A stretch of 44,433 nt of DNA from Paraspadella gotoi (taxonomy: Eukaryota; Animalia; Chaetognatha), in contig JBJCIZ010000447.1 of NCBI GenBank assembly GCA_051294375.1, positions 1 through 44,433 of the forward strand. The letters are read 5' to 3'. Positions 3,431 through 36,544 of the stretch are shown one piece after another (the stretch's first letter is position 1; every line of letters begins with the position of its first letter). Below the pieces are notes generated by a model. That model was not told the DNA's origin. It searched no databases and was given only the letters and a program-made list of their open reading frames with translations. The translations under genes were made by a program, and so were the position numbers.

Positions 3431-3923
3431 TTAATGAATATTAAGTAGTAATGTTTTCAGTTTAAAAAGATAATTTGTATCATTATTATGAGAAAACATT
3501 CTTAAAAAATATAAAATTTGCAAACCACATGCTTTTGAGTTGTCATGTTGTGATTTCAAGTGCAATCTTTTTAATGATAAAGAATGTTTTGTACAAAAAT
3601 CAATTATGACTTTATTAACGTGTGGAAAATCTTCCTCTAACTTTTCTAAAGGATCGATAATCACTGCAAAATTATTTACAAAATAAATGCATAATATTAA
3701 CCAATGACCGATTTTATCATATTCAGATTCTTTTGAAGATAAGGTATTTATTATTATTGCTAGTTTATGTCTTTTTTGTTTAATAAGGTTAATGTTACAC
3801 ATTTCATCATAAGAAAGAATAAGTTTCCCTTTTAAAATAGTATTATAACTTAATTTATCTTTTTTTTAAAAATCGTTTTAAGTCGTTATCAGAAGTGATT
3901 AGGTTATTTTCAGTCAAGTCCAT
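3431..3923 (-). CDS. Adenain-like (C5) cysteine maturation protease, apparent frameshift in an A8 run near 3860
   Basis: IIINT...GHW (His), IIDPL (Asp), Q...S.ACG (oxyanion Gln, catalytic Cys). The upstream ATG at 3923 is 121 nt from the ORF start at 3802, i.e. out of frame by one base. Confidence 0.85.
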
Positions 3924-3952
3924 ATTTGAATGGTATAAATTACTGTTAGTCG

Positions 3953-6431
3953 TTATTGTTCTACGTCAACTGATTGGTAGACCAATCGATTAGATTTTAT
4001 TATTAATGATCGAGCCTGTGTGAAAAACACTGTAACATTTAAAACTGTGGTTAAAGGCTCTTCAAATTCTAAATATAAACGATATTGGTTTCCAGGATTT
4101 ATTGTTGACTGTAGCGATTGTGCATTATCTAAATCGACGTTATTTACAGAGGGTGAAAGCTTAAAAGGCAATATGAATTTTGTATTTAGAAAGGCTTGTA
4201 ATGTAAAGTCCTCTGTTCCTTTTCTGTTAAAAAATTAAATGTATCGCACACGTGTTGATAGGACGCTTTTTTTTGCCCATTCATTGACGAAGGAGTAACC
4301 ATCCACGTCGCCTGAGTAAATAAATTCATATTTTATATTCGTTTTATTGTACTTATTATTAGAGCAAAAACTTTACCTGAGTTTCCGAGAGGGAGATGGA
4401 ATTTTTCGAACTTATTCCCACTTCAAGAAACGCGCGAGCTAATTTTTCCCTACCGAAGACTTGGATCGACGATGCGAATGTGCCGTTGTGAACGGTGTTT
4501 TTATGGAGTAAGACGAACGGCGAAGGAAAAACTATTTTTTAGTGTCAGAGAAAGGAATTTGTTTGTAATTCCTGAAGGTAAAAATAAATTAAAGATTGTA
4601 CAAATGAATATTAATGAATAAATAATTAATAATAATAATAATAATAATTAATTAATAAATAAAAATAAATAACCACCTGTTTCTAGTGAGTAAACCTTTG
4701 CAAATGTAGCCTGAAAGAGAAAACAAAATTACTAAATTAAGTAATAGAAATAACAGTAATAATTAATAACTTACATTGTAATTTACTTGTATGGGCCTCG
4801 CGATTAAGGAATTTTCGATCCTTTCCAAGAGATTTTGGCGTAACAGAATTACGTTGGCGTATAAACAGCAGGCTTGTAAGATATATATTATATAAATAAT
4901 TATTTTGTGAGTTATTAAGAAAAAAAGAAAAAAAGAAATTACATTTGACTGTGAATTTCGGTTTTAATCCAGCCGTTTGCGTGATGAAGTATCTTTCGGC
5001 TGAGATGAAGAGAGAGAGTAAGACATTTAATGACTTTTTTTATGAATTAAATTCAAAAAACACTTACGACTTGTCAAATAAAATTGAAGTGTTATGTCGA
5101 GATTGTTAGGTAAAAGACAGTTCATCGTCGAAAGAGGAGAGAAGAATGACAAACGAAATTTGAGGGGTTTTTGTTTATGCAGTAAAATAGTGCGTTTGCC
5201 GTTTTCTTGGTTTGGGGACTTGCTTTGAGACTCCGCCTATTGGTAGGAGTAGCCTAACTCAGTAAGGTGGTTAAGAAATTTTAATCAAGCACCTACTCAA
5301 ACGAAAATTTAAACTTTATTAAAATTTTGAATAGACAAAAAATTTAATATTATTCCATACCCTATATATTAATTTTTATATTATTTATAAATTTTTTGGT
5401 TTTTTTTTTATAATTTTTAAGATAAGATTTGGGTAGCCTTTGCAAAAGTTGTCTATACAAAGTATAATTTCTTTTTTTTTTAATATTTTTATCATAAGTT
5501 TTTTTTTAAATTCTTTTTTTACCTGAAAGTAGACTTCAAGACTAAAGTTTGAACCCCCCGCCTATTGATTTTAATTTCATAGTAGATTTCTACCTATGTC
5601 TTTGATTCGAAGAAAGTGGAGACATTCTGTGCTGCCAATATCGTTGAGGTCCTCAATATAGTACTCAAATTCACGGAGAAAAGATTGTCGAGCCGCAAGA
5701 CTATATTTAGTAATGTAATTAAGTCGAGCTATGATACCGTAGTTTGTTGTCGTACTAAAATTAAAAAAATATTATATATATATATTGTTAAATATTTTTA
5801 AGAAAAGAAATTATTTTAATTAATACTTTAACTAATTGTGAAGATCCAATGTTTAAAGAGCAACTATCGAAGAGACTTTGGGCCATAAGGGGAAGTGTGG
5901 ACACGTCAAATGTGGTTAAAGCGCTTCCATCTTCTTTAGTGGCCACAATTTCGATGTCCAGGAAAAAACGATGCGGATTTAAAAATGCTGTTTTCTCGTT
6001 GAATCTGAAACTGATGGCGCGTCCTCCTACGGAGAAAGAGTTTGTTATGATCCTTTCCTTTTCGTTACGTTTAGAGATCAACAAATGTATTGTTTACCTT
6101 TTGAAAGTTCAGTTGTGTCCTCTTTCATTGGTAGAAGGAGAGAAACAACAAAAATGTGAGAGTTAAAGAAAGAAAGTTATAAGATAATTCTTTCTTTATA
6201 TTTAATTACCTGGGTTTATGCGTACATAACCTAATGAGAGAAAGAAAAATTACATGTATAGTTATNNNNNNNNNNATAGCTTGAAGTTGTATTATTCATA
6301 TTCATACCGTTAAAAAGACATCCGTCTTCGAGATAAACTTTGTTGTTCAAAAGGGAATCAATCTGTGGAGTTATAACAGGGGTTGGATCTGTGAAGGTAG
6401 GAGCGTCACCGAATCGTATGCTTTCCCCCAT
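3953..6431 (-). CDS. Major capsid protein (double jelly-roll, Polinton type), about 12 exons, with apparent frameshifts
   Basis: Exons 6431-6308, 6230-6210, 6121-6098, 6026-5827, 5754-~5594, 5236-5068, 4999-4943, 4872-4775, 4710-4677, 4571-~4378, ~4311-4250, ~4223-3953. Polinton MCP-like segments: ISFRF...FLNP..FFLDIEI..TKEDG...QSLFDSCSLNIG, NYGIIARLNYITKYS, LLPNNLDITLQF, HNGTF, FILPFKLSP and C-terminal YRLYLEFEEPL...VTVFFTQARSLIIKSNRLV. Frame breaks near 5750-5830, 5240-5600 and 4500-4540. Confidence 0.8.
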
Positions 6432-6471
6432 TTCGTTTATTTTTTTGTTTATTTTTGTTTAGTTTGTTTAG

Positions 6472-6768
6472 TCAAATGAAATTACGAGAATTAATTTTTT
6501 GCTTTTTCTTTTTTGGTAGACTCGATTTCGTTTCAGTTTTGCAATTTATGTCAGTTGTCGTTTTTCTTTTTCTTTTTCCTCTATTGTCTTCACGGGCAGG
6601 TTCTTTTTGATCAGCTGTTTTCTTTTGTTGTGTCTTCGAAGCCGGTTCGCTTTCAGCTACATTGCTATTTTGTTGATTTTTTGATGAAGCGAAGTACGGA
6701 ATTAGAAGCTCTGCGATAGTGGGCTCAAAACCTGAGCTTCGCTGGGAAACAGAACTATACCAACTCAT
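6472..6768 (-). CDS. Small basic (Lys/Arg-rich) protein, possible virion core/DNA-binding protein
   Basis: 98-aa ATG-initiated ORF tightly packed between penton and MCP. KRKRK and KKKKQK clusters. Confidence 0.65.
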   Translation of the reverse strand: MSWYSSVSQRSSGFEPTIAELLIPYFASSKNQQNSNVAESEPASKTQQKKTADQKEPAREDNRGKRKRKTTTDINCKTETKSSLPKKKKQKINSRNFI

Positions 6769-6808
6769 GATGTTTTTTCTTTTTTAAAAAAGAATGTGGG
6801 AAAATAAA

Positions 6809-8371
6809 TCAAATATCATTTAACGACACCGGTCTAAATGAAATACCAAAGTAAATAAAGGTTTTTTTTGGAAAATAAATTTGATTAAAATATTCATCTA
6901 AAATTTTTATTTGAAATCCGCCAAATATTGTTTTCCCTTGTTTTACTCGGTGAAAGGTAAGTTCATTTAGAGAGTTATCGTTTTTACAAATAAAACGTTT
7001 GATAACATCCTCATTTGTGATAGTTTGTGAATGAAATACATTTAAATTAGAAAATGTTGTATTGTTTAATCTAGAATCGTCATATCTGCATTGATTTATA
7101 GTTAAGTCAGACAAGAAGTGAATTGTTCTTGGAAAAGTCGTGACTTCAAACGGTAATAATTCATTAATTCCAATTCTGTGATATTCCTCTTTTCTTTTTT
7201 TATTTGGGGAGGAAGTTGAATTTGTTGAAGAGCTTTTATCTTTATTTGTGATGCTAAATATTAAGTCTTTACCACGTTCAGCTCCTAAGAGTTGTGAGGT
7301 TTTATTGTTGAAATGAATGTTTAATTCAGTTTGATAATCAATTTTCAGGAATTCATCAAATTTAGAAGTAAATTGACATTTATTTTTTGTTTCATTAAGT
7401 TCTAATTTTACAATTTCCGTAACAATATTTTGATTTGGTTTAATATTTGTTAAAACAATATTTGATAGTTTCAGTAATTGCATATTGTCTTTTCTTAATA
7501 TTTTTAATGTATCAATACTTTGTTGGGTGAGTGACTGAGATTCTTCATTAATTTCCAGAGCTTGTAACTCATTGAGCCAACTTTCGATCTCATTAGTTGC
7601 TGTATTTATTAAATCTGGATGCTGCAGTGATAAATCTTTTTCATGCAATTTATTACAATCAATTAATTTTTGTAGTACTGTTTTCCTGTCTTTCATTTGT
7701 GTTAGATATTCACTCCTGTTGACTAAAGTTGTCTCTTCACTTGCAGAAATTCCTGAATTGTATGTCCATTCAATCTCATCGTCAATAACTTCATTGAGGT
7801 AAGTATTAAAAGATTTATGCATTATTTTTCTGAAATAAACACTACAATCGAGGTACCACTTGAGTATTTTAAAATCCTGACTTGAAAGGCTTATCTTTTT
7901 GTCATGTTTACTAAATTGGAAAGAGTTAATGTTAACAAGATTAAAATCTGAAATAATAGAAATAATTTTCAATATTATATACTTATTTAAATGGTTATTC
8001 AGGGTCTGATTAATAAATGTTATAGCTTCTTTTGGTTTTGTTATTGTCAAGTCATCCAGGTTAATGCACATATAAGTGTTGTTACTATGGGAAATTTCCT
8101 CTATTCCATAATTTTGATTAACATTTGCTAAAGATGTCGGAATAATTAAAGAGACAAAAATTTCGTTTTCACTAGTAAACGAAAGAGGAATATTCGTAAT
8201 TTGAAACGTGTTCATGCACAGTTCCGATAAAGGACTCTTAAATGGTAAAATAGTTTGATTAAGATCAATCTGTTGAGTTAAATTAATATAAAAATCGCTT
8301 GTTGTAGATACTTTTCCTTCGTTTTCTTCCTCGATTTGTCTATTAGAAAGATAAAGAGTGAAAAGACTCAT
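6809..8371 (-). CDS. Minor capsid protein (penton, single jelly-roll) with large central insertion, 520 aa, intronless
   Basis: N-terminal FTLYLSN...TTSDFYINLTQQIDL and C-terminal FHRV...FQIKILDEYFNQIYF...FGISFRP match the Polinton penton pattern. Lies between integrase and MCP. Confidence 0.8.
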   Translation of the reverse strand: MSLFTLYLSNRQIEEENEGKVSTTSDFYINLTQQIDLNQTILPFKSPLSELCMNTFQITNIPLSFTSENEIFVSLIIPTSLANVNQNYGIEEISHSNNTYMCINLDDLTITKPKEAITFINQTLNNHLNKYIILKIISIISDFNLVNINSFQFSKHDKKISLSSQDFKILKWYLDCSVYFRKIMHKSFNTYLNEVIDDEIEWTYNSGISASEETTLVNRSEYLTQMKDRKTVLQKLIDCNKLHEKDLSLQHPDLINTATNEIESWLNELQALEINEESQSLTQQSIDTLKILRKDNMQLLKLSNIVLTNIKPNQNIVTEIVKLELNETKNKCQFTSKFDEFLKIDYQTELNIHFNNKTSQLLGAERGKDLIFSITNKDKSSSTNSTSSPNKKRKEEYHRIGINELLPFEVTTFPRTIHFLSDLTINQCRYDDSRLNNTTFSNLNVFHSQTITNEDVIKRFICKNDNSLNELTFHRVKQGKTIFGGFQIKILDEYFNQIYFPKKTFIYFGISFRPVSLNDI

Positions 8372-8397
8372 GTTGTATTAAAAAAAAAGTTACAAGA

Positions 8398-9455
8398 TTA
8401 TATTACATAGTTTTGCTTTTCTTTAGTTTTAAAGGCGTCACTATACCTCAAAACGTTTTTACCTAATAACTTAACATAATTTTTTAACTCTTGAGGTAGA
8501 ACTTTTTCTTGCTTTCCTTCCTTTTCTATGGTATAAACAATCGTTTCGCGACCCGGTAAAACTCGTCCGGATCTAAGTGATCTAGATTGATCAAGCAGAA
8601 TTTCCACGTCCTTAATTAGTATTGATTGATTTGGAGTTTTGATTGATGATTTAATTTCATTTGAGGTAGTTTTATTTTGATCATAAGTGGACTGCCTCGG
8701 ATTGATTTTACTCAATTCAAATTCGTAAAATTTTCTTTTTGTATCATCAAACTCTTTAAGTTTATATCTTCTGGGGAAATAAGTCCTGTCAATTGATTCT
8801 ATTGTAAAAATTTTTTTAGAAAAACGAGGATAAAAAACAGATGATTCCTTTCGAAATTTTTTAACCGGAAGTATTAGGAGCACGTGATCGTTTTCTCTTA
8901 ACTTTTCGGTATTAGATATTTTTGAAAAAATACTTTTTGCTTTTTGTTGATGTTTTTCAAACTGTTCAAGTCTTTTTTGTAAGACAACGCTCTGAGCGTG
9001 GGTATCGAATTGAATTTCAAAGGGAGTGAAGCCAAAGCCGGAAGAGAATTTTCGATGATTGTAGGTATGTTGCACAAGCTTTTATGGAAAAAAGAGAAAA
9101 AAAAAGGTAACTGTTTTGATTATTAATTAATAATTAATTCATTTTTATATTTTACCTTTATAATTTTGCGATAGTCGAAAGTGCTAAACTCGATCATGTA
9201 TCGAAACATTAACGCCTTGACTGGATAATAACCAGAATAAACGTGTATTAGTATTTATAATAGTGAATTGGTAGTTTTTATTTGGTACCTGTCCTGATGC
9301 TCCTCTCTATAATGGAAATTTTTGGGTACACAGAGGTGTGGGTGGTATAGGGTACAATTCCGTACCGTTTAGTAAGGATATTCGTAAAATCCGATTTAAA
9401 TTCATTTCCTCTGAGTGTATAATTAATTAATTAATTAATTAATTTAAAAAAAAAT

Positions 9456-9502
<47 letters not shown>

Positions 9503-9505
9503 ATA

Positions 9506-9536
<31 letters not shown>

Positions 9537-9566
9537 CAATCAATCATAAATCAATCAATTCAATAA

Positions 9567-9621
<55 letters not shown>

Positions 9622-10233
9622 AATGAATAAATCAATGAATAAATCAATGAATCAATCAATCAATCCATCCATCAATTACCTATCACTTAGAAAATATTTG
9701 AATGCTTTTTTGGGGTTTTGAATATTAAAATCAGTTTTTAATGCCTTTTCAAAATTTTTTAAGGTTGCTGTCGATTTTGCTGACTTCTGAGTCGACAAAC
9801 TTATGAAGCGACTATTTATATCTTGTAGAATCAATATTATTTGATGGTTATTGTTGTGATTACGTAATTGAGGCAAAAAAGCTGAAAAAAAAAGAGATTA
9901 TAATTTTTTTTTTTAAACAAAATGTATTCTCTAATTATATTACACACCTAAGTCTCCGGCGATTGTATGAAAAGAACGAAATGTGATATATTTACGGAAA
10001 GAATAAGGTCTTTTCCCTCTTAACCTTCGTTCGTGACGTTCTCGGCTTAGACTCTCTAGGTGAGACTTAAATTCTAATATTTCGCGAGTAGTCACTTTTT
10101 TTAAGTCTCTATATTTCTTAGCGTTTTTATAAATTTGTTGGGTTGATTTCTGTAGGAATAACGGTGAATTAAATGTTCTATAGAGACGGTGAAGGAGTGC
10201 CAATCTCTTTTCTTTCTCTTCCCGAAGGGACAT
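8398..10233 (-). CDS. int: Retroviral-like (rve) DDE integrase of Polinton type, 5 exons, ~451 aa
   Basis: Exons 10233-9948, 9881-9680, 9410-9289, 9220-9156, 9078-8398 join in frame (1356 nt). Spliced product reads IAGDLAFL...ILILQDINSRF...LSDRGNEF...KISIIERSIRTVK...YNHR...GFTP, then the Polinton integrase C-terminal pattern DHVLL..F.K...FS..IF.I...YKL...FYEFEL. Confidence 0.93.
9418..9675. repeat. (TAAT)n/(TCAA)n/(TAAA)n tetranucleotide microsatellites filling integrase intron 2
   Basis: Directly visible. Lies between the exon ends at 9680 and 9410. Confidence 0.95.
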
Positions 10234-10292
10234 GGTGAATAATAAACAAAACTATAATACAAATTTAGGAAAAAANNNNNNNNNNAAAAAAA

Positions 10293-22645: not shown

Positions 22646-22930
22646 TCTTAAATACTTTTTGTTTAAAAAAAAAGCCTTTAGTTAACCTATTAATATTTTC
22701 CCTCCTTATCCCCCCCCTCCCATACATCCACACACTTTAACTACTTACAAAAACCTTTTTTTTTTTTTTTTGTTCGCTTGTTTGTTGTTGGTTTTTTTTT
22801 TCAATTTAAATGTGAAAAAATAGATAAATTAATTATCAAAATTGAGAAACATCAAAATTTTTTGGGGTTAGTCAAAACTTTAGCAGACCCTAAACATATT
22901 ATTACGCAAAAATTAACAAAATTGGATGAG

Positions 22931-25522
22931 ATGGCGTTTCCAGAAGAAAGGTTGGTGGTTAATTCGGGAACTGATTCCTTGACGAGTGAAGAGACAGTGA
23001 AAAAACTTTTTTCTCAGGCCGTTTCTAGAACTAACGAAAATGAGGGTGAAAAGGTTAAGGTAATGAGACAAATTAATTCAATTATTGATAAAATTACAGC
23101 GAGCAAGGAGGAAAGAGATGCTTTAAAAGAAAGGATTCGCCTCGGGGTTTTGAACTGTAATGAAGAAGGAGGGAATAATGAACTCTCTAATTTTATCCTT
23201 GAAAATTTGCATCTTGTGAAAGCACTGGCTTTCCCAAATTATGAGTGCCTAATCGCTTTTGTTAATGAAAGTAAAAAGAAAAATAGTTTACTCCCCAAAA
23301 AAAAAGGAAAGGCAACTATCCTTTATCCCCTACCCTTAACACCTGTATATTACTTAAATCTACTCCAAGCCAATCCGCAGCTTAGTAGATTCGAAAATGT
23401 AAGATTTAAAAATTTACTTAAAGCATTTTTAAAAGCCGAAATTAACATCTCCGATCCAACGGGTCAATTATCCCAGATCAGAGAATTCGCTCGCCGTAAC
23501 GCGAATTTTTTTTTAGGCCAAAAACAAAAAAGTTTATCTTTATCGGAATTGTTTGAAAGTAATCCAACAGAAACTCGCCATGTTTCTGCATCTGTCGTGG
23601 AAACTGTAATAAAAAAGATTGGCACTCAAAAGGGAGTTCATTATAATCTCATTAACAATGAAGATAAAATCGGAATGAACTTTTCATGCTTTCATTGTGT
23701 CTCAGCAGCTCCGCTGAGTGAAGAGGCAAAAAATGGGTGTTCTTTTAGGTTCAATCCAAGCATCCTTGCTTCCTTTAATATCTTTCGAGCTAAGGTTCTT
23801 GAAAACAGTCTTGAGGTAAAGGATCACTTTTTGAATAATCATTCCCCTCTCGGCAAATATGGTGATTTTTCAAAGGCTCAATCCTCCAAGGCAGCAAGTG
23901 AGCATGGTTTGCTTCTCGTTTGCGGTCGGTGTCACATCCAATCTCAAAAATATCTTTCCACCTCTATCGTCTGTTGTGAAAAGTGCTTGGTCCGACATGT
24001 TCTATTGCTTCACAGTAAGGAAGATCGTTTTCTTTCCTTTTATCAACATCTTAAGAGTGAGTATTACTGGGATGCTGTGAAATCGGACATAAGTGAGAAT
24101 TACTTTCTGGTTNNNNNNNNNNTATGTCTTTGCATATTTCCCAACAAGACGGAAAGGGATAAGCACATGGCAAATCTTTGCATTCCAAGGATGGTGAGCG
24201 GTTCATACTTTTATGGTAATCCCTATATTTTCGATAGGTCTTTTGAAACCTATACATCCGTCGCGGCAAGGAAAGATAAAGAGGCAGAAATTTTGACAAA
24301 GCAGGTTAGGTTGTTCTTAAATAAAATGAGTTCGAAATCTGTTTATGTTCCCATTTCGGAGAAGTCAGTGGAAGAGAGTTTAGAAGGTGACGAGAGCGAT
24401 GGTAAGGACGTTGAAGGCGAGGCAGAAAAAGAAAGGGAGAAGAATCGCAAGCTGTCGTTCAAAAGCATGTTGTCCATGTCAGTTAGGAACGTCGTATCGA
24501 AGAAACAAGCACCGGCCTTAATTAGCAACAGCTCGATCGCAACGGTCCAGAGTGAGAACATGGAAACGTTAGAGACTGTGGCGACAGTACCTAGCTGTAC
24601 AGAAGAAGCAGTTGTGGAATCAGTACAAAGCAGCAGTGAGCAGCCGAGTTGTTGTAGTCAGGATATAGCTTCAGTGCCACCGACTTTTGTAGAAGAGACA
24701 GAAAACAAGCAGAAAGAAAGGCAGAAAAAAGGAGAGACAGAAACAGAGACAGAGGCGGAGACAGAGACGGAGACTATTAAACGCAGAAAAGAAAGAGCAA
24801 GTTTTTTTCTTGACAATGAAGCAAAAGAGAGTCGGAAAGAAGGTCAGAAAGAAAGTCGGAGAGGTGAAGGTAAGGAAGGTAAGGAATCTCGTAAGGAGAG
24901 GTCTGTAGTCAAGGGAAAAAAGAGGGAAAAGAATGAGCAAGAGTATATTGACAAAGGCGAAAAAGGAAAGGTTAGAAAAGGAAATGGGAAAGAAGAAAAA
25001 GAAAAAGAAAAAGAAGGCCAAATTACGGAGTCTCAAAAGAAAGATAAAGGAAAGGAAAGGGCGGAGAAGGAGAGAGAGAGAGAGAGANNNNNNNNNNGAG
25101 AGGGAGAGAGAGAGAAAAAGAGAAGGGAGAGAGAGAGAGAGAGAGGTAGGGAAAAGAAGATCGAAACCGAAAGAAAAAAAAGAAAAAGGAGGGAGAGTGA
25201 GGATAGCAAAGAAACAGAGAGACGAGGCGAGAAAGGGCGATTGTCGGAGGCAAAAAAGAAAGTCGAAAAAAAGGACAATAAACATTTGAGAAATTGTTTT
25301 AAAACACAACCGAGTAAAAACGATAAAAAGAAGNNNNNNNNNNACTCAGAAGCTTCTTCTTCCCACTCCTCATCTCGCTCTTCTTCCTCCTCTCTTTCCT
25401 CTTCCTCTTCTTCTTCCTCCTCTTCCTCCTCCTCAGAAAGCAGTGTTAAAAGTTCAAATATTAGTAGAAAAGGAAAAAAAAAAAAATTGAGAGTAATCGA
25501 GTCTGATTCAGATTCGAATTAA
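22931..25522 (+). CDS. Large Cys/His-rich (putative zinc-binding) protein with Glu/Lys/Arg-rich and poly-Ser tail
   Basis: Long ORF from MAFPEERL. CFHC, H...H, CGRCH, CCEKC..H...H and C.IF....RDKH...C clusters. Three N gaps inside. Confidence 0.7.
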   Translation: MAFPEERLVVNSGTDSLTSEETVKKLFSQAVSRTNENEGEKVKVMRQINSIIDKITASKEERDALKERIRLGVLNCNEEGGNNELSNFILENLHLVKALAFPNYECLIAFVNESKKKNSLLPKKKGKATILYPLPLTPVYYLNLLQANPQLSRFENVRFKNLLKAFLKAEINISDPTGQLSQIREFARRNANFFLGQKQKSLSLSELFESNPTETRHVSASVVETVIKKIGTQKGVHYNLINNEDKIGMNFSCFHCVSAAPLSEEAKNGCSFRFNPSILASFNIFRAKVLENSLEVKDHFLNNHSPLGKYGDFSKAQSSKAASEHGLLLVCGRCHIQSQKYLSTSIVCCEKCLVRHVLLLHSKEDRFLSFYQHLKSEYYWDAVKSDISENYFLVXXXXCLCIFPNKTERDKHMANLCIPRMVSGSYFYGNPYIFDRSFETYTSVAARKDKEAEILTKQVRLFLNKMSSKSVYVPISEKSVEESLEGDESDGKDVEGEAEKEREKNRKLSFKSMLSMSVRNVVSKKQAPALISNSSIATVQSENMETLETVATVPSCTEEAVVESVQSSSEQPSCCSQDIASVPPTFVEETENKQKERQKKGETETETEAETETETIKRRKERASFFLDNEAKESRKEGQKESRRGEGKEGKESRKERSVVKGKKREKNEQEYIDKGEKGKVRKGNGKEEKEKEKEGQITESQKKDKGKERAEKERERERXXXXEGEREKKRRERERERGREKKIETERKKRKRRESEDSKETERRGEKGRLSEAKKKVEKKDNKHLRNCFKTQPSKNDKKKXXXXSEASSSHSSSRSSSSSLSSSSSSSSSSSSSESSVKSSNISRKGKKKKLRVIESDSDSN

Positions 25523-25802
25523 ATGATAGGATAGAACGGAATGGATTGAGATAGTAGGAAACGAGAAAGTAGGGAATCATAAATATGAATAAAAAAAGGA
25601 TTATATACATTTAATTCGATTTTGATATTTGATTTTGATATTTGATTTGATTTAATTTGATTTGAGTTTGTTTCATTCTATTATTGTTATTATTATTAAT
25701 TTGTTAAGTGACAAATGAAAAGAGAATGTACTTAATTGTGTAGCGGTTATACTTTCTACTGTTTGATTAGTTTGTTTTTTTCTTTTTTGACCGAAGTTAA
25801 AT

Positions 25803-26582
25803 ATGACCGACATACAAAAAACTCCTACCCCAACCCCCGTAAAGTCGGTGAGCTTGAGAGGGGCGAAGCTCTTTTTAAAAGAGAGCTTCGCCAAAAGGAC
25901 TCGGCTCACAAAGTTCGACCTCGAGCATCGGATCATGAAGGAAGAGAAAGAGGGATTCGAGGAGCTCGGGGGAAACAGACTCCCAATGGCTGAGTGGTAA
26001 ATTCAATAAATAAACAAACAAATATATAGATACATAAATGGCTACATAAATAAATACATAAATAAACAAATCAATGTTTTTTTTTTGTCAGGTGTCTCCA
26101 CCGAGCGGCCTTTTTTCGAACCTACGAGCAAGTTCGTGGGGAGGAGAACTTGCTCGGCAAGTTCAAGAACCAGATAGCAAAGATCGATGACATGTGAGAA
26201 TTGTGTTTCTTTTCTATATGTACACTTTTAAAAAACAAATGCAAATTATTTTTTATAAATGNNNNNNNNNNGTTTTCACATAACCAGCCTCGACGTAGCC
26301 GATCGCTCGGAAAGTGATCGGGGTAAACCTCACTACCTACACCACATCGTGGAGGGACGTGAGAAGAGGAACCCTCCAAGAATCGTCGGGCGGGGCGGCG
26401 TTGTTCTCGAACGCCGTCGCGTGTACGGGCGGTTGAACCTCGGGGATGGGGTCGGCGACTCCGACAGTGGGGAGGAGGACGACTTCGAGCGGGATTGCAG
26501 CTACAGCGTTGTATACGTCGAGGATGGCAAGGATCCGAAGGAGGAATTGATTAAACAACTTAGGAGATTTTATAAAAAGTAG
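25803..26582 (+). CDS. Hypothetical protein, paralogue 1 of 3, 3 exons
   Basis: Exons 25803-25996, 26092-~26193, ~26275-26582. Shares EK.GFEELGG.RLP, WCLHRAAFF, EGRE.R.P and GVV with the next gene. Confidence 0.75.
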
Positions 26583-26679
26583 AAAGGGTAGAGAACTTTT
26601 TGAAAAAAAAACTTTTTTGAGACTTTTGATTTGAATTGTTTGTAAATATGTATATTGTTTAAATTGTGTAATAATTGAT

Positions 26680-26951
26680 TTTCTCTCTCTCTCTCTCTCT
26701 ATAATTCTCTCTCTCTCTCTCTTTCTCGCTCTCTCTCTCTTCTCTTTCTCTTTCTTTCTCTCTCTCTCTCTCTCTTTCTTGTCTCTCTCTCTCTCTCTCT
26801 CTTCTTTCTCTCTCTCTCTCTATAATTCTCTCTCTCTCTCTTTCTCGCTTCTCTCTCTCTCTCTCTCTCTTTCTTTCTCTCTCTCTCTCTTCTTTCTGTC
26901 TCTCTTCTCTCTCTTTCTCTCTCTCTCTCTATAATTCTCTCTCTCTCTCTT

Positions 26952-27044
<93 letters not shown>

Positions 27045-27089
27045 ATAATCTCTCTCTCTCTCTTTTCTCGCTCTCTCTCTCTCTTTCTT

Positions 27090-27127
<38 letters not shown>

Positions 27128-27150
27128 TCTTTTTCTTTTCTCTCTTTCTA
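26680..27150. repeat. Compound (CT)n microsatellite with higher-order ctataattctct / ttctcgct units
   Basis: ~470 bp of CT repeat punctuated by recurring ataatt and ctcgct interruptions. Confidence 0.95.
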
Positions 27151-27206
27151 TTGTATAAAACAATTTTTGTGTATATATTGGATTGAATTTTAATTAAAGA
27201 AAAAAA

Positions 27207-28056
27207 ATGGCGACACAACAAAACATCGATTGGGCTGAATTGGCGGAGGCGGAGAGGAGAAGGGAGGCAGCGATGCCAAAGAGGACTGTGAGCTTGAAGG
27301 GGGTTATCTTCTTTCTCCAATTTCTGAGAAACATTCACCAGGACAATCGCTACTATGCGAAAATATCCAACGGAAAATTGATAGACCGCCTCGTCGAGAA
27401 GGAGAAGGACGGCTTTGAGGAGCTTGGCGGTGCGAGACTGCCTGTGAGTAAATATATATAGTAATAATGTTCTTTGATATTTTATGACCCTTTTCTTAAA
27501 AAAAATATATGTATATTCATATTTTGCGCATTTAACATTTGACTTAAGTTTCATCCCCTCTTTCCTTTTTTTAGTTGCATGCCTGGTGTCTGCATCGCGC
27601 GGCCTTCTTCGCGGTGCTCAAGAAGACGGCCGATCACCTTGACGCCTTCATCAACTACGTGACGCATTTGAAGGACATGTAAGTTTGTTTTTGTTTGTTT
27701 GTTTATTTGTTCTCTTTTTAATATCATATTTATGTAGATTTAATGCTTTTTTTTTCTTTTTTCTTTTTAGTCTCGAGATGACGGACATGCCTTCAAACAG
27801 CGTCACACCCCCTCCTGAACTCCACTACATCAAGGAGGGGAGGGAGGAACGGCATCCCAGCACAATTTTGGCCCCGCACGGGGTTGTGNNNNNNNNNNAG
27901 TCGTTTGCGGTGGAAGACAAGAGAGATGGAGAGCTTAAGTTTGGGGAGGTTTATATAGTAGGGGATCAGGACGTTTTCATGGAGAATATACTCCAAAGGG
28001 ATAGATACAATTTTGCTATCACTAATTTTGATATGGATGCTCCTTATCCTAAATAA
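27207..28056 (+). CDS. Hypothetical protein, paralogue 2 of 3, 3 exons
   Basis: Exons 27207-27443, ~27575-27678, ~27771-28056. Motifs as in paralogue 1. Confidence 0.75.
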
Positions 28057-28263
28057 ATCTCTCTCTCNNNNNNNNNNTCTCTCTCTCTTTTTTTGGGCTC
28101 TGTTTTTTTTTCACTGTATTTTACTTTAGTTGTATAGTTTTCTTTGCCTATATATTAACCTCTCTCTCTTTTTTGGTCTTTTTCGCTAATAAATGTATTG
28201 TTAATTGTTATTAAAAATTATAAATATACATTAATGGTTTTTATTGTTCATTTATCAAGATAA

Positions 28264-28899
28264 ATGGATACAAAAGACTTTAAAAAANNNNNNNNNNAAA
28301 CTGTGTGTCTTCTAGCTGTGCTAAAACTTTTAAGTGACTTTTCCAACGATGTAGTAAAGAAAGACATCATCAATCAAGAACTTGAGAAGGAACTTCTACT
28401 TCGTCAAAGTCGGACGCACAAGACTTCTCCGATCTGAGTTCGCACTTCTTCACTCGACNNNNNNNNNNGGACAAGACCCGAAGGGCTCGCGAGTTGATTC
28501 TCCTTCAGGATTTTATTCAAAATCTTAATAAAATGTTAAGTTTTTATTTATCACTATTTACTAATTGACTTTTTGTTAAAGAGGAAAATTATTTATTAAA
28601 TTAAATAATCTTTTAACTTTTGTTTTTTATTCAGCATTTGTGAGGCTGATGATCGCTCTCGTTCGAAGGAGAAAAACCAGCGGAAGTTCGCCACATTTCG
28701 GGAGGATTTGAGGAACGACACCCCCGAGGTATCCAGAACCGAGGGAGTAATCTTAGAACGTTGCGCAATACTTAAATATATTAATAACTCTAAGGACTCT
28801 GATCGATCTACTTCTTATGGCTTTGTCGAAGTGTATTCCTGTAAAGGGAAAAATGTTTATTTGTCAATGAACAAACAAGATAATTTTCTTGAGAATTGA
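28264..28899 (+). CDS. Hypothetical protein, divergent paralogue 3
   Basis: KTVCLLAVLKLL resembles KSVSLRGAKLFL/RTVSLKGVIFFL. Last exon has GVILER...YGFVEVY resembling GVVLER...YSVVYV. N gaps and a stop at ~28435 make the model uncertain. Confidence 0.45.
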
Positions 28900-28957
28900 T
28901 CAACTTTGTTTTTATATTCGTTATTTCTTTTTTCGCCTTAAAAATAAAATAAAAAGA

Positions 28958-31900
28958 ATGGAAAATTATCAAAATGATGAAGTCGATTCTGACGATGAAA
29001 ATGAACTGATTAATCAACTCTTAAATTCTCCTCCATTAGAGGAAGTAGACGAAAATACCTTGAAAATAATTGGTTATTTAACCGACGATATCTTCTCTGG
29101 GGCTAGCAGTAAATATATTCTTACGCGAGACTGGAATTCTGAGCGCAATAAAAGACTACTGCTTGAAACAGAATTAAGATGTTACTTAATACATGTCCAA
29201 ATTTATTTACGTCGACTCTTATCACCGAGAGACACGCAACAGCACCCGCTCCGTTACTTAGTCTGGATCGCTACAGGTGTGTAATAATTGGTAAATAGTA
29301 GTAGTAATAATAATAATAACATTAATTATTACTGTACAATGCGAAGGGATTAGAATAGATTGGGACAAGAGAAACTAAATTAAATATTATTTTTCCGTCG
29401 TTAATTCACTAATTCACTCTTTTTTCTTTCTTTCTTTCTTTCTTTCTTTTTCTCTTCTTTCTTTCTTTCTTTTTTATTTTACTCACAAAACATTTTTTTT
29501 TTCCACAGAAGTCGAATTCGGAAAAGCCAGCGACTTAAGTGATAGGATTTCACACTGGGTTTCTTATCGGAATCAACATTTTCTCCTCGACGTTCTCGAA
29601 GAAACCGAATCCTTCATCTCAACCATATTGCAGGCTTTTACAAATTTTGTTATAGAACATGTTTATTACATGAGTGACTTAAGAGAAAGTGGGTGGACCT
29701 ACTTGTTTTTAAAATCTGTACATATCAGACATGCAGCTGTTCCTTCTACAAATAATTTGATAAGATATGGAGGTTCTAATGATGAAAGGATATTCAAATC
29801 CGAATTACAATCCGCCTTTTCAAGAAACGTTTTTGATACGGATAACTATATTTTAAACAATGAAAAAATGAAATTGTGTGTTCTGTACGGGATAATGCTA
29901 AGTCTTGAAAACAAATTTGGGGATAAAATCTTAACTCGTGTTCCTAAAAAATTTGCCAAGGAAGTCGTGTCAGCGATTAAAACGGGTGATTTGATAAAAA
30001 TTGACAATGAGGGGTTAAAGATTAATGATTTTTCGAAACTGGAAAGGCTTAATTCTCCGATACCAAATTCTTTAATTAAATTTTACCCAGAATTAATTTT
30101 ATTGAAAGGAATATCTATTAACGTATTTAAAATCCGCAAGGCTCTTGATTTTAAAGCCTATTCAATCTTTCCAATCGCGTTGAGCTCACATCATACTGAT
30201 GATAATTATCACCAGGTTGACTTATTAATAGACACTCCAGAAATCAGAGAAAATCCTGTCGAAAACATAACCGGTTTAGCATATAACGAAAGTGATCATA
30301 TACTATTTATATCTAACCTACCAAGACTTTTACAATCATTTCAATCATCTGTTGAAAAGAAATTTAATTCGAATAGATATAGATTTGTCTGTCGCAAATG
30401 CATTAATTTATTCACAAACGAGCGGGCTTATTCTGATCACGTCGAGCTATGTCGGGCATTTTCAGCCGGACAGGGTCGACGCGAGGCTATAAATAAGACC
30501 GTTCATGTGACAGAAGTGGAAAATCCCTGGACCGGTGTACTTGAAAAAAATGTTCTTCAATTTGAGAGAAGCATGCTCTATAAAAAAATTAAACCACTAT
30601 TTTTCTCTTGCATGGATTTTGAGGCCACCACTAAACCGATTGATCATTCCAAAAACTACCCGCATATTCAGACTAACGAACCACAACCGCCTAATAGCTC
30701 AATCGCAGAACAGAAAGCATTATCTTACAGTTTAACACATAAGAGTCTATATGAAAAGAATTTTCCCTTACCAAAAGAGTTAAGGACTCCTCGGTGTAAA
30801 TTTTTAGATGAAAGAATACAAACAGAAAAAGATTTTTTCATTCAACTTCTTTTAAATCTAAGAGACGATGCTTGGAAATTGCATCAGTTTATTCAAAATG
30901 TTTATAAAATGGATAAGGGAATACCAAAATTACATGAATTAACTCTAGAGGAAAGAATAAAATATAACATGCAAGATTTTTGTGATTTATGTGGACGTAA
31001 ATTTGATTCGAAATCTAAAAATAAGTATACAGGAAGAGTGTATACCTTGAAAAAAACGATAGACCATTCTCACATTTATTCAGGAAATACAGAATTAAGA
31101 TTTTTAACTTGCGCAGGATGTAATTTAAATCTTGTCGACTTTTTGCCACATAAAATTAATCATAATATCTTTTGTCATTTTGGAAGTCACTACGACGGAA
31201 TTTTCCTTCTTCAGGCTCTTGTAGAGGCTGCCACACATTGCACTAACGTATCACATGACGTAGTAGGAAACCCTATTTATAAACCTATTATAAGAGAAGC
31301 CCCTAAAGTGCTTTTCAAGGGCAATGAAAACACCCCGCTGTCAATTCGGTTCAAATTTTCTTGCCCCTTCCCCTCCTCTTGTCCAAAATGTTCTTCTTCA
31401 AAATATGAGCGGCGTGAATTTGCAAGGATTAATGGTTACCCTCTGAAGTGCTTTTCTGACAGATACTTGGTTATAGTTGACAGCTTTTTGCTGATCCCTC
31501 ATTCTCTTTCTTCAATTATATCGGATTCTTACACAGCTGCATATAACAGTGATGAGGACTCTCTCACAGAAGTATTTTCATCCACTTACGAATTTGTTAA
31601 AGATTGTGGTTTTACAGATTCCTTTTTTGAATTTTTAATACGTCAAAAAGTTGTGATGCCTTTTAAGCTGCTTACATCTTTTGAGGCAATGGAAAATGTC
31701 AAAGAAATCCCTCCCATAGAAGATTTTTACTCTGAACTGAGTGGCAAGAAAGAAATATCTCAGGAGGAATATGATGTTTTTAAAAGCGTTTGGCAAGGAT
31801 TAAATGCTACCAATCTCTTTCATGTAATATTTTTTTATAATATTTTGGATTCTCTGAACTTAGCCGACGCTATCTCTTTCTACTTTGAAAAATTACATAA

Positions 31901-34059
31901 CATCGTAAATTTTTATCCATCTCATTTTTTAACAATATCAAGTCTCGCACTTACGTCTGCTTTATTTCACACAAGAGATCCAATCAATCCAGAAAAGAGA
32001 CTTCAACTGGAAATGCTGGATTCTGAAACTTATCAAATTTTTCAAAAGAACTTGGTATGATTATTTTTATTATTTTTTTTAAAAATAACTTATTAAGACT
32101 AATTAATACATCATTTCAGTTAGGGGGTTTTGCAGCAATTTTTTCTTTTCTTGGAGAGTACGATTTTGATACTGAGGACGAATTGGCGACAGCATCTTAC
32201 ATAGACGCTAATGGTAAACAACAGTATTCCTATAAAATAAATTAAATTAAATTAATTTTCTAAAATGTATTTTTTCTCTGTTAGGACTCTATCCCCACGC
32301 AATGACTTCTTTCCTACCCCACAGTGGTTTTGAAATACTTCAAAAAACATCCCACCCAGAAATTTTTAATGTTTTAAGTGAAAGACTGATTAATTGTGAT
32401 GTGGACTTTTTTCATAATGACCTAACCAAAAATCATATAGGATATTTATTTGTGGTAGAAACACAAACAGACATAGACGAAGCGAGTGAAATCAATCTTG
32501 ATTTATCGTTTTTCCCAATCAATAAAAAAGTGAAGTCTTTTGAATTACATCCTGATCAGATCCGCTCAGCTGAGAAACTAGGTCGTCGAATAGACAAGGA
32601 ACTCGGGAAGTTGATTTCTACAGTTCACACCCATCCCACCCAAATATCGGATTTCACAGAAAATCTTTTGTACTCATGTATTTTCCATGGAATGAAAATC
32701 ACAAAAGTGATTAAAATAGTACGTTTTAATTCTTATCGTTACCTAAATAAGTATATTCTATATCTCCAAGACCAAAGATCAAAAACAAAATCTAAAATTT
32801 TAGGTAAACTAGTAAAAAATTTGTCCAACTCGATTTCAGGAAAAATGCATGAACAGAGATCTAAGTATCTTAATGCATCCATTTGTCTTGGGAAAAAGAA
32901 TTTTTTTAAAGAAGTAGCTAAAATCCATTTTTTTGATTTCCGTAAAATATCTCAAAATGCGGTGGTTATACTTAAAGACGGCTTAAGTATGAAAGAACGT
33001 AATGCCCCTTATTTTAGCAGTCGTGTGTATTCCATCTCCAAATTATTCTTATGGCGATCTTACTTTACTTATGTTGCTAATATTGCTAAAAATGGCGATG
33101 TTAATTCTCGTCTCGCTATCACAGGTATATATATATTTGAATTATATTGATTAACAAAACACCCAAACTTTCGGATTCTTGCAATTGATTAATTATTTAT
33201 CTATTTATTTATTTATTTATTATCCAAAAAAGATACTGATAGTCTCCTCTTCTCATTTATCAAGAAGAAGTCTGATATAGAAAGAAACGAATTAATTGAA
33301 TTAACACAATCAAATCAAAAGATCGGATTAACCCAAAGCCTCACTGGAGATAGTTGGGCCAATATTTATCTACAAACTTTCGCCTCTCACCTCGATTTTT
33401 CTTGCTTAAATGAGGTATTTTTTATCTATTATTTATTTCATTTTTTTTTCAAAAATTATTACTAGTGTTAATATTGTCATTTGTTGTTTAGGATTCGTTT
33501 ATATATCAATGCTTGATAAAAAAGGAACCGCAATTGCTTAAAGTTATGTTGGAATTCTTAAGTCAATCAACCAAAAATAGGGCCGGTCTTTTCAAAGATG
33601 AACTTAACACAAACATGGTCAAGGTAGATTTAGTATAACTTNNNNNNNNNNTAATAATAACTATGATAATAGTTGTAATAATATTACTCTATTTAGACGG
33701 TCTTCGCGACTTCTGTTAAACAATATTCAATTCTTACATATCCCAAGCTTCCTGACTTTCCCTTCAACCAACTAAATGAAAATGTTAAATTATCAGTTGC
33801 AAAATCTAAAGGAGTTAAAAAAAATGTATTTTTAAATAATATTACTATTGACGATTATAAGAATGCAATACACACTGACGAACCAACGCGGAAAGTCGCA
33901 CAACACGGGATAAGAAGGAGAAATCAACGGATATATATCGTTAGAGAATATAAAAAACTTCTTACTCGGTTTACATCTAAAAGAATATATCGAAATTCTG
34001 ATAATGATGGGAGATTCTTCTTCACTTATCCTCTACATTTGAAAGATGCCTTGCCTTAA
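28958..34059 (+). CDS. polB: Protein-primed family B DNA polymerase (Polinton pPolB), 7 exons, ~1491 aa
   Basis: Exons 28958-29276, 29509-32054, 32120-32213, 32285-33124, 33233-33414, 33492-33623, 33697-34059. All introns are GT-AG and phase-consistent (4476 nt total). Motifs: ExoI MDFEAT, ExoII HFGSHYD, ExoIII YNILDS, LGG, PolA YIDANGLYP, PolB KNLSNSISGK, PolC TDTDS, GLFKDE, KQY, KSKGVKK. Also N-terminal ESGW/SINVF/CRKC..H..C and an internal CDLC..DHSH..CAGCNL (endonuclease VII-like) segment. Confidence 0.95.
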
Positions 34060-34154
34060 TTCTGACTGTTCGTTTATTTGTTTTATTTTGCAATAGATTT
34101 ACTAAAAATAAGGCCAAAAATAAGGACGTTTTTTTTTAATCTTGTTGGGGAGAG

Positions 34155-35898
34155 ATGCCTGACGTTAATCAGACCTCGGACCTTTCAGCAATGGAAAAGC
34201 GTTATGACGATTTCTTCCGTTTGCCGTTAGGTAAATAATTTGACATTCTAATACTTTTCCTTTCAGGTTTTATTACACCTTTTTCTTTAATTAGATCAAG
34301 ATCTAGTTAGTGCTATAAGACTATCATACGATCGAGTAGCGCTGTTTGACACCGACGAAAAAAACGAACCGATCATTGAGATTCGTCGCGTGGATAACGA
34401 AATCAATCGCAATTGGAAGGAGGCAAGCTTTTTCTATATTTGCTTATTCATTTCACCTTAATACTATTTACGAATTATACTTAATCCTTTTTTTTTTAGT
34501 CGGGATTCACAACTAGTGACTGTCGCCGTTGCTGGGCTCTTCCACTGTGGCACCTCATACTACTAGCCAAAGAGGGTGCCTTTCAGATTTTGCAGGTTAA
34601 ATTGTTTGTTAATTAATTTGCCTACTTGTCTCTTTCTTGCTTTCTTATTTCTTTCCCAATCTCTTTTCTTAAGATCGCGATAAATGAGCTCAATAAAGAG
34701 CTCAACGCTGACAATGAATTCCACAATGACCCCAATCGCCTCCGCGAAATTTGTGAGGTATTTTTTTCTTATGCACCTACAAATTCAGTACAAGTGTCTT
34801 TAAAAATTTGTATTTTCTCAGAAATACCTCGTCAAGAGGTCGAGAGTTTCGCGTAGCTCTTATGCAATTGAGCTTTCTTATGAGGAAGAGAGGAAGTCTA
34901 ACTCAGGCACAGTCCCTCGAGGCTATTTCGCCCAAGTACGACGCATCGTCAACACCGGGAACGAAGACGATGTTCAGTTCGTTTCGCCGTTTCACTCCGG
35001 ATCTCCGGGAATGCGGGCGCAAACCCACATCTGGACCAGGCTTTACCAGGTTATTTTTGTTACACAATACATACACATTTATAAATACATTTCAATTAAT
35101 TTCTTATATCACTTTATAGGCGATGTTTTGTCTGCCTTACCCAGGTAGACATACCTACGACGACTTCAAGGAGAACGAGGCCGAGCATCAACAAGCTCAA
35201 CTTCCACCTTCCGAATCTGGCGACTGGTTTAATTACAGTAATCAGAAACGGTCGTCCTCTGAGTCATGTGTGCCTTCAAAATACCGCAAAAACTTCTTCG
35301 GGGAGATGGCGATTCTCGCCCTCCAAGCTCACTTCGATGAATGTCTCAACCCGGAGAGATGTGACACTTGTGAAAGTGGCGTCACGGTCAAGATGATCGA
35401 GGATTGGGACGAGTAGGTTTCATTGATCTGCTATCTATTTTCTTTGTCTACTCTATTAAACTATCCCGATATGTCACTTTTAATCTCTCCCCTCCCTCAT
35501 TTAGAACTCATCGAGGAGCGACGCTGTACAAGAAGTACAGCGGCGTCACCCCCATGGACATCATCGTCAATGAGAAGAAGTGGATGGTTGCCAAAGGTTT
35601 GTGTTTTTTTTTNNNNNNNNNNTTTTTTACTTTATAGGATTTATTACTTATTTACTTTGTACAAAATTACTTATCCTCCCACTATCTTTTTTTAGATACA
35701 GGACCGCGGGCTCGTACGACTTCATCGACTGGCAGTCTCCCCGATCCTCTCCTCGTGTCTCTGACCCCCACCGAACGGATGCAAATTCGCCTCGCTGAAA
35801 GGAAGAGGAAGTATGATGATGCGCTTCTCTCTGGAGAAATCGCCGGTTCTTCACGTTCAACGATGACGCAGCCTCTTTCCAACGGATTTCTGAATTGA
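34155..35898 (+). CDS. 8-exon, ~399-aa protein, putative tandem PC4-like ssDNA-binding protein with Cys/His cluster
   Basis: Exons 34155-34230, 34295-34422, 34500-34595, 34674-34757, 34822-35049, 35120-35412, 35505-35596, 35696-35898 give an open 1200-nt frame. Intron 2 has a GC donor. The gene model is well supported. The PC4-like call is an inference from two (I/Q)(I/V)RR...W..L segments and the position next to PolB. Confidence 0.7.
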
Positions 35899-36544
35899 AA
35901 ACGCCAACCTCTCGCCGGTTCGCTAGCTGACTGTGACTAATTTAGGACAAACTTCTTAGTACTTTGACATAACAAAATATTTGACTTTAAACCACGTATT
36001 GACTTCAAGGTTGGCTTGACTTAATTTACTGACACAAACGAGTGACTTGACTATCGGTCAGCTAGAGAATAAAAACACTGACAGACTGACTGACTATCTA
36101 AAAAAACTAGCCAACTAGCCTTCGTATTCATATTTTATTTTTTGTAAGGAAGCTATATTTTTTCCTTACACATATATCTTTGGGTATTTCTTAATTTAAG
36201 CAATTTTAAAAAAACGCGATTTTAAATAAATCTTTTCTTAGTATTATCTTTTTTTNNNNNNNNNNNNNNNNATATTTAGCAATTATTATTACTATCAACG
36301 TGAAAGTTTATTTTGTTGTGGTTTTCTGTTATTTTAATAGTATTCCAGTATTGAATTCTCTTAAACAAATAAATTGTATATACTTTATATAAAAAAGTTC
36401 AATGTTACAACTACCTAATTTACACGTAACACAACTACCGATTAATCATGCGAATATCGTCGAATTAGAATATCGTTTTAAAGAAAAACCTACATTTGTT
36501 AATTGTATCCAATTACTTTACCTATCGCACCAAGGGAAAACTTA

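What the first reader, a model, noticed from the sequence alone, without database searches (positions are those of the whole stretch)
3431..35898. A giant Polinton/adintovirus-like element whose core viral genes are riddled with spliceosomal introns
Seen: PolB has 6 introns, integrase 4, major capsid about 11, ATPase at least 2, the gene next to PolB 7, and most accessory genes are also spliced. Introns are mostly 60-110 nt and AT-rich with canonical donors and acceptors, and splicing restores open frames for PolB and integrase. Established: Polintons are typically compact (~15-25 kb) with largely intronless core genes. Inference: this is a 33-39+ kb, intron-dense lineage of endogenous dsDNA virus that depends on the host spliceosome, and ORF-based searches would largely miss it. 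Intact PolB and integrase frames argue for recent selection rather than decay.
Basis: partly seen in the sequence, partly recalled or inferred. Interest (0 to 1): 0.95.

Follow-up and report, generated by a model that had tools for sequence, protein, structure and literature searches.

The report
Intron-riddled Polinton-like virus lineage
A virus-like Polinton element from an unidentified eukaryote has its DNA polymerase, integrase, packaging motor and likely capsid genes cut by about 30 ordinary host-type introns, two of them at the same spots as in a distant relative, so it likely belongs to a lineage that needs the host's splicing machinery and that gene searches blind to introns overlook.

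Summary
PolB has 6 introns, the integrase 4, the gene beside PolB 7, the ATPase 3 and the likely major capsid gene 10 clear ones. Of these 30, 29 are GT-AG and 1 is GC-AG; median 77 nt. They split polymerase motifs A and C, the integrase core and Walker A; the PolB and integrase frames are otherwise open.

One probable RNA run shows six spliced joints in two accessory genes, none listed inside PolB. A metagenomic relative (35% identical PolB) has 4 introns, 2 at identical position and phase, and the same spliced neighbour gene. None of the 150 listed relatives carries a whole polymerase in one ORF. The introns therefore look inherited within a lineage, not added after insertion.

Caveats: host, ends, terminal repeats and integration are not shown. 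The capsid frame is broken at 3-4 places (error or decay). Penton and protease are intronless. At about 32-39 kb it is not 'giant'.

Papers read describe Polinton core genes as intronless. This scan noted intron-bearing Polintons on other DNA (36 notes, at least 10 genomes). New variant of a known kind; 0.72.

The parts
3431..3811 (-). likely cysteine protease (adenain-type), intronless
   Evidence: H/D/Q/C motif order seen in the sequence (label recalled); Pfam Peptidase_C48 E 0.038, below cut-off; not significant against the L002 protease, z 0.7
3953..6431 (-). likely double jelly-roll major capsid gene, 10 clear introns plus 2 doubtful; frame broken at 3-4 places (junction 5826/5755, 5593-5523, near 4530, near 4225-4250)
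   Evidence: three-frame reading, intron census; last exon resembles PF04451/PF21738 clusters at 0.94-0.95 with a low recognition score; z 1.6 against the L002 capsid
6472..6771 (-). small basic ORF between penton and capsid, intronless, function not found
6809..8371 (-). likely minor capsid (penton) gene, intronless, 520 aa
   Evidence: Atlas hits V18-19 and Adeno_Penton_B at 0.91, weak; fold failed, pLDDT 33; position matches L002 order
8398..10233 (-). rve-type DDE integrase, 4 introns (9882-9947, 9411-9679, 9221-9288, 9079-9155), open, 451 aa
   Evidence: aligns across all four junctions to the intronless L002 integrase, z 11.6
10293..15480 (-). multi-exon accessory gene(s), partly duplicated in tandem (11686-13100 against 13535-14930); full model not resolved
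16460..20059 (-). likely packaging ATPase, 3 introns (16550-16684, 18166-18644, 18655-19859), 10-nt micro-exon in Walker A, long charged insertion before Walker B; start not defined
   Evidence: open exons and phases; identity rests on motifs (recalled); z 0.9 against the partial L002 ATPase
21300..22900 (.). microsatellite-rich spacer with a ~580-bp tandem repeat, from which the two gene arms diverge
22931..25522 (+). intronless Cys/His-rich ORF with charged tail, no family hit
25803..28056 (+). two paralogous accessory genes; the second has 2 introns and an open frame, the first has 1 checked intron and a second whose acceptor falls in an N gap
28958..34059 (+). [quoted passage not shown]
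   Evidence: (HHalign 99.9% to P0001, which carries PF03175)
34155..35898 (+). conserved gene beside PolB, 7 introns (one GC-AG), 399 aa; homologue follows PolB in L001
   Evidence: introns 6 and 7 spliced in run X6
37915..38881 (-). spliced Ser/Pro-rich membrane-protein gene, 4 introns seen in RNA contigs; may or may not belong to the element
628..1754 (-). second Ser/Thr/Pro-rich membrane-protein gene, at least 1 intron; may or may not belong to the element

Best explanation
This is a Polinton-type element whose polymerase, integrase and likely ATPase and capsid genes are cut by canonical introns, likely inherited within a long-lived lineage that would depend on the host's nucleus and major spliceosome to make its core enzymes. 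Shown: the introns, the open PolB and integrase frames, splicing of two accessory genes in one probable RNA run, and shared intron sites with a distant relative. Inferred: host RNA polymerase II transcribes the two divergent arms. Inferred: introns were gained one at a time, mostly at AG|G-like sites, and were gained and lost along the lineage, because relatives share some sites and differ at others. Inferred: the element copies itself by protein-primed replication and inserts by its DDE integrase like other Polintons. Because introns split motifs A and C, the integrase core and Walker A, unspliced RNA could give no working enzyme, so host splicing would act as an on/off gate. Whether this copy still makes particles is open, since its capsid frame is broken as written.
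For: 30 introns, all GT/GC-AG. Intronless L002 proteins align straight across PolB and integrase junctions. Six spliced joints in X6 only. L001 PolB, 35.4% identical over 1304 columns, has 4 introns: 2 at identical position and phase, 1 two bases away. Two or more shared sites arose in 2 of 200,000 uniform draws, 378 of 200,000 when limited to one site in 16, and 1,812 of 200,000 when also limited to the last 600 residues. The spliced gene after PolB is homologous in L001 (z 16). Of 150 listed relatives none reaches motif C in the same ORF; 44 reach the end of exon 2 and 30 of these stop within 100 residues. The window and 14 relatives form one branch, SH-aLRT 100, against 3 canonical polymerases. 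The introns are not copies of each other and have no boundary repeat over 7 nt.
Against: No joint across a PolB intron among the 15 joints shown (9 hidden), and one X6 contig keeps PolB intron 2 unspliced. Integrase, capsid and ATPase splicing was not tested on reads. X6 is only guessed to be RNA. Intron sharing rests on one relative with DNA. ORF ends of the other relatives may partly be contig ends. The capsid frame is broken at 3-4 places, more than even scatter over the left arm would give (p 0.007-0.025). No terminal inverted repeat in the window. No branch-point enrichment: 17 of 30 against 15.1 in shuffles. ATPase, protease, capsid and penton are not significant against L002 (z below 2).
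Confidence: 0.68

Rival explanations
1. A domesticated viral gene cluster: an old Polinton insertion fixed in a host lineage, passed on vertically, gaining introns as host genes do; the relatives are orthologues in related hosts.
For: PolB pieces show no differing letter in runs from three studies (table 8); no terminal repeats; capsid frame broken; accessory genes expressed and a paralogous exon under purifying selection, 15 of 18 listed differences at third codon positions. Shared intron sites fit vertical descent equally well.
Against: The whole kit (PolB, integrase, likely ATPase, penton, capsid, protease) is still together in the Polinton order; 610 clusters at 50% identity match, 96 at E below 1e-30, with deep branches, which is more like a virus family; a second diverged copy of one gene lies in the same organism.
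Confidence: 0.15
2. A free (non-integrated) nuclear DNA virus of the sequenced organism, persistent in its cultures or populations, assembled as its own contig.
For: No host gene, tRNA-type or other Rfam feature recognised in the 44 kb; depth flat along 27150-39100 in X3; two of the three same-study runs of other organisms are not at issue, but both listed ones lack it.
Against: Open integrase; host-like microsatellites in spacers and introns; held by all 9 listed runs of organism A across 2018 and 2025. Depth relative to host genes was not measured.
Confidence: 0.1
3. An ordinary intronless Polinton that collected introns after insertion, for example from intron-making transposons (introners), and is now decaying.
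For: Reported for dinoflagellate maverick-like proviruses, mostly gained after integration (PMC11957031, passages read); capsid frame broken and a degenerate tandem duplicate present.
Against: Introns are unrelated in sequence apart from microsatellites and lack long boundary repeats; 2 sites identical in a 35%-identical relative; no whole-polymerase ORF among 150 relatives.
Confidence: 0.05
4. The gaps are not introns but insertions, assembly errors or decay that happen to look spliceable.
For: The window has single-base differences from all four short-read runs in its right part and 24 N gaps; two tiny capsid 'introns' may be frame errors.
Against: All 30 have GT/GC-AG ends with compatible phase except one capsid junction; DNA contigs run through PolB introns with no difference; RNA-type contigs skip six of them exactly.
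Confidence: 0.02

Closest known systems
Polintons/Mavericks of animals (PMC8097293 and bioRxiv 10.1101/2022.07.12.499685, passages read)
   Same: pPolB, rve integrase, and likely ATPase, protease, major and minor capsid; gene order integrase-penton-capsid-protease as in the intronless IMG/VR element L002
   Different: Those papers state that intact elements have intronless core genes (introns only in nematode cargo genes); here 23 introns lie in four core genes. Genes point outward from a central spacer. No terminal repeats seen.
Adintoviruses (PMC8502044; bioRxiv 10.1101/2024.03.25.586562, passages read); ~30-kb adintoviruses of Amoebidium (PMC11244446, passages read)
   Same: Fold of PolB exon 2 matches adintovirus and bidnaparvovirus polymerases at E 1e-14 to 1e-9; similar size
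   Different: 13-15% identity only; OTU domain, chromodomain and reciprocal hexon match not shown; host unknown; no splicing of core genes in the passages read
Introner-bearing maverick-polinton-like proviruses of dinoflagellates (PMC11957031, passages read)
   Same: spliceosomal introns inside full-length Polinton-like elements
   Different: There the introns are transposon copies, mostly gained after integration; here they are unrelated to each other and partly shared with a distant relative
Endogenous nimaviruses and Ginger2 integrases (PMC10871703, passages read); group I introns in protist PLVs (PMC12220804, passages read)
   Same: introns within integrating DNA viruses
   Different: there in captured eukaryote-like genes, one integrase, or self-splicing introns; not across the replication and capsid core

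Membership tests
Polinton/Maverick | protein-primed family B polymerase | tested here: met
   HHalign 99.9%, E 2.9e-32 to P0001, which has PF03175; z 39.5 to L002 PolB; fold hits
Polinton/Maverick | retroviral-type DDE integrase | tested here: met
   z 11.6 to the L002 integrase across all junctions; the L002 label is my reading of its motifs; no Pfam hit for single exons
Polinton/Maverick | A32/FtsK-like packaging ATPase | tested here: inconclusive
   Walker A and B and a C-terminal motif present (labels recalled); z 0.9 to the partial L002 ATPase; no homologue found
Polinton/Maverick | adenain-type cysteine protease | tested here: inconclusive
   Peptidase_C48 E 0.038, under cut-off; no relevant PDB hit
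Polinton/Maverick | double jelly-roll major and single jelly-roll minor capsid | tested here: inconclusive
   Atlas look-alikes 0.94-0.95 and 0.91 with low recognition scores; z 1.6 and 1.0 to L002; order as in L002
Polinton/Maverick | terminal inverted repeats | tested here: inconclusive
   none in the window, but the ends may lie outside it
Polinton/Maverick | 6-bp target-site duplication, several genomic copies | not testable with these tools
   no host genome held
Polinton/Maverick | intronless core genes (a described trait of intact elements, not a formal criterion) | tested here: not met
   against PMC8097293
Adintovirus | PolB with N-terminal OTU-like domain | tested here: inconclusive
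   one OTU chain at rank 10, E 0.77, in the PDB fold search of exon 2; exon 1 was not in the model
Adintovirus | integrase with C-terminal chromodomain | tested here: inconclusive
   no chromo hit for the last exon at E up to 10
Adintovirus | hexon reciprocally found by BLASTp; animal host | not tested
   no reference hexon on hand; host unidentified
Introner-derived introns | families of similar introns with target-site duplications | tested here: not met
   only microsatellite-level matches among 30 introns; boundary repeats 0-7 nt

The most novel reading that the evidence does not exclude
An undescribed, diverse family of Polinton-like DNA viruses, common in environmental assemblies, has carried host-type introns through its catalytic and capsid genes for a long time (about 3 per kb of coding sequence here), still moves between genomes as particles, and has escaped virus catalogues because no core gene is a whole ORF.
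Probability: 0.4. Interest if true: 0.88.

Novelty: new variant of a known kind. Interest (0 to 1): 0.72.

Why it matters
Polinton core genes are described as intronless, and surveys call 'intact' only elements with uninterrupted ORFs, so an intron-rich lineage would be missed or filed as decayed. Intron gain is rare and hard to watch; a compact viral lineage with shared, shifted and private intron sites in alignable enzymes makes it directly testable. Introns through catalytic motifs would also tie the element's activity to host splicing.

Tried and rejected
No host genome is held, so copy number, flanks and target duplication were not tested. No run is on record as RNA ('no RNA holder listed'; X6 is a guess). 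Splicing of integrase, capsid and ATPase and the cause of the capsid breaks remain untested on reads. In X6, contigs end at PolB exon borders (32214, 32284, 33124, 33695) where DNA contigs run on; one study only, so a weak hint, not counted. Pfam: no hit above cut-off for 36 window ORFs or 15 window pieces; PHROGs none significant for 13; Rfam 0. PDB sequence searches found nothing relevant. Word-indexed protein searches found only P0001 and P0196 and nothing for the ATPase. Five IMG/VR scans for clade members found none; these find close relatives only, so absence is weak. Penton fold failed. No branch-point signal. My L001 neighbour-gene model was wrong in its later exons (17 stops), so only its first 133 residues were compared. 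The ATPase model had a coordinate slip in its first piece (4 stops), corrected but not re-scored. A pattern search for the Cys-rich insert returned nothing; that insert is read. The 61-row tree is a quick tree and does not place the window firmly. 20 relatives looked up gave no informative name. Rejected: introner origin, 'giant' size, adintovirus membership as shown.
Full report
Observation. The 44,433-base window is 26-44% GC, rich in microsatellites, with 24 short N gaps. No host genome is held. I checked each exon on its own for stops and phase. PolB (28958-34059, +) has 7 stop-free exons and 6 GT-AG introns and gives 1491 aa; each intron has stops if read through. Intron 3 splits motif A and intron 4 splits motif C (motif names recalled). 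The integrase (10233-8398, -) has 4 introns and 451 aa. The gene after PolB has 7 introns, one GC-AG, and 399 aa. The likely ATPase has 3 introns, with a 10-nt exon inside Walker A. The likely major capsid gene has 10 clear introns and 2 doubtful tiny ones. Over these 30 introns, 29 start GT and 1 GC, all end AG, 24 are 60-110 nt, mean AT is 0.78 against 0.68 in exons, and 20 follow AG. They total 4,435 nt; a branch-point motif is not enriched, 17 of 30 against 15.1 in shuffles. Penton, protease and the ORF at 22931-25519 are single frames.

Identity of the genes. A profile of PolB exon 2 and 31 relatives matches P0001 at 99.9%, and P0001 carries PF03175 and endonuclease VII. The folded exon (pLDDT 82) matches adintovirus, bidnaparvovirus and adenovirus polymerases, 20 hits at E up to 0.001; the best PDB hit is phi29 polymerase at E 0.087. 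A canonical intronless element, L002, served as control. With X at junctions, PolB scores 334 (z 39.5) against 214 for its best exon, and the integrase 146 (z 11.6) against 68. ATPase, protease, capsid and penton are not significant against L002 (z below 2). Their labels rest on motifs, weak hits and the shared order integrase-penton-capsid-protease.

Reads. Nine of 11 listed runs, all organism A, three studies, hold 85-99% of the words of 29400-35900; four may be the source. On 27150-39100, run X6 (guessed RNA) alone shows joints matching introns 6 and 7 of the gene beside PolB and four introns of the membrane-protein gene; DNA runs X3, X5 and X8 show none of them (15 joints shown, 9 hidden). 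No shown joint crosses a PolB intron, and one X6 contig retains PolB intron 2. Listed PolB pieces have no differing letter in any of the four runs. In the right part, all or most runs differ from the window by single-base indels, so the window has errors. The left arm was not examined on reads.

A lineage, not a one-off. PolB exon 2 matches 610 clusters at E up to 0.001 and 96 at 1e-30; the 150 listed are 26-42% identical. The 20 looked up are unnamed assembly proteins. The longest of the 150 is 1131 aa. Forty-four reach the end of exon 2, 30 of them stop within 100 residues, and the longest continues 339 where 536 are needed. None matches exons 5 or 7. Contig ends may explain some, but P0007 keeps its length on contigs up to 13.7 kb. 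The one relative with DNA, L001, is 35.4% identical over 1304 columns and has 4 PolB introns: two at the same position and phase as the window's, one 2 nt away, one private; the window's introns 2 and 6 are absent there. Two or more shared sites arose in 2, 378 and 1,812 of 200,000 draws under increasingly strict nulls. The gene after PolB in L001 is a spliced homologue (28% over 116 aa, z 16). In a quick tree the window and 14 relatives are split from 3 canonical polymerases at SH-aLRT 100; three outgroups make this a limited test. The introns are not an introner family.

What does not fit. There is no inverted repeat outside microsatellites, so ends and integration are unshown. The capsid frame fails at 3-4 places while the neighbouring integrase, penton and protease are open; even scatter would give this with p 0.007-0.025. 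That is decay of the capsid gene, local assembly error, or a flaw in my model. The core span of 32.5 kb includes introns and a 1.85-kb duplication, and protist elements of 14-40 kb (PMC10120064) and 30-kb adintoviruses (PMC11244446) are in print, so 'giant' is not warranted.

How it likely works. Inferred: host polymerase II reads two divergent arms; the major spliceosome removes the introns; PolB replicates the element by protein priming and the integrase inserts it, as in other Polintons (established for the family, untested here). Since catalytic motifs are split, retained introns would abolish activity, which makes splicing a likely control point. Confidence 0.68. Rivals: domesticated cluster 0.15, free nuclear virus 0.10, post-insertion intron gain 0.05, artefact 0.02.

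Literature. Ten full-text searches paired Polinton, Maverick, adintovirus, polintovirus or nimavirus with intron terms. For 15 papers I saw only passages around search terms, no whole text and no supplements, which may bear on novelty. PMC8097293 reports no introns in intact vertebrate elements and cites Kapitonov and Jurka 2006 as agreeing (that paper not seen). The nematode preprint 10.1101/2022.07.12.499685 calls core genes intronless and cargo genes intron-bearing. PMC8547959 found none in endogenous virophages. Precedents are introners in dinoflagellate proviruses (PMC11957031), group I introns in protist PLVs (PMC12220804) and intron-bearing genes in nimaviruses (PMC10871703). A giant-virus preprint (10.64898/2026.10.09.758095) mentions spliceosomal introns 19 times; search listing only. 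Passages of PMC8502044, 10.1101/2023.08.22.554363, PMC6431247, 10.64898/2026.10.13.758929, PMC11296320, 10.1101/2024.03.25.586562 and 10.64898/2026.07.28.741278 showed no spliced Polinton core genes. Adenoviruses already use host splicing (recalled), so spliceosome dependence alone is not new. Subscription papers and repeat-database entries were not searchable. The scan's own notes list 36 findings on intron-bearing Polintons in at least 10 genomes, none similar in sequence; they are unchecked and not counted as support.

Verdict. It works like a Polinton and meets two defining features by test, with the rest inconclusive or untestable. It departs from the described intronless architecture in a way shared by distant relatives. 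New variant of a known kind; interest 0.72.

Noticed in passing
window 11686-13100 and 13535-14930: Tandem duplication of about 1.85 kb, 95-100% identical in blocks; the copies differ by scattered single-base indels, so one is degenerate or unpolished.
   Followed up: partly
window 35145-35420: A diverged second copy of this exon is in all four runs, at equal depth in X3; 15 of 18 listed differences are at third codon positions. It suggests a sister element or paralogue in the same organism.
   Followed up: partly
window 17180-17900 (-): About 250 residues of charged, low-complexity sequence inserted between Walker A and Walker B of the likely ATPase.
   Followed up: no
window 31350-31460; alignment A6: A Cys-rich insert after exonuclease motif II is shared by clade polymerases and absent from the canonical P0001: a possible marker of the lineage.
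   Followed up: partly
window 628-1754 and 37915-38881: Ser/Thr/Pro-rich single-pass membrane-protein genes lie at both ends, both on the minus strand and spliced; viral cargo or host genes.
   Followed up: partly
window 21300-22900: All left-arm genes are on minus and all core right-arm genes on plus, diverging from a microsatellite spacer.
   Followed up: no
relatives P0044, P0070, P0072, P0103, P0131, P0140, P0143, P0148: Their ORFs run off into non-homologous sequence at several different offsets around the conserved GG motif, suggesting repeated independent intron gain or sliding at one motif; protein evidence only.
   Followed up: partly
L002 (IMG/VR): A canonical intronless Polinton-like element with the same integrase-penton-capsid-protease order, used as control.
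   Followed up: yes
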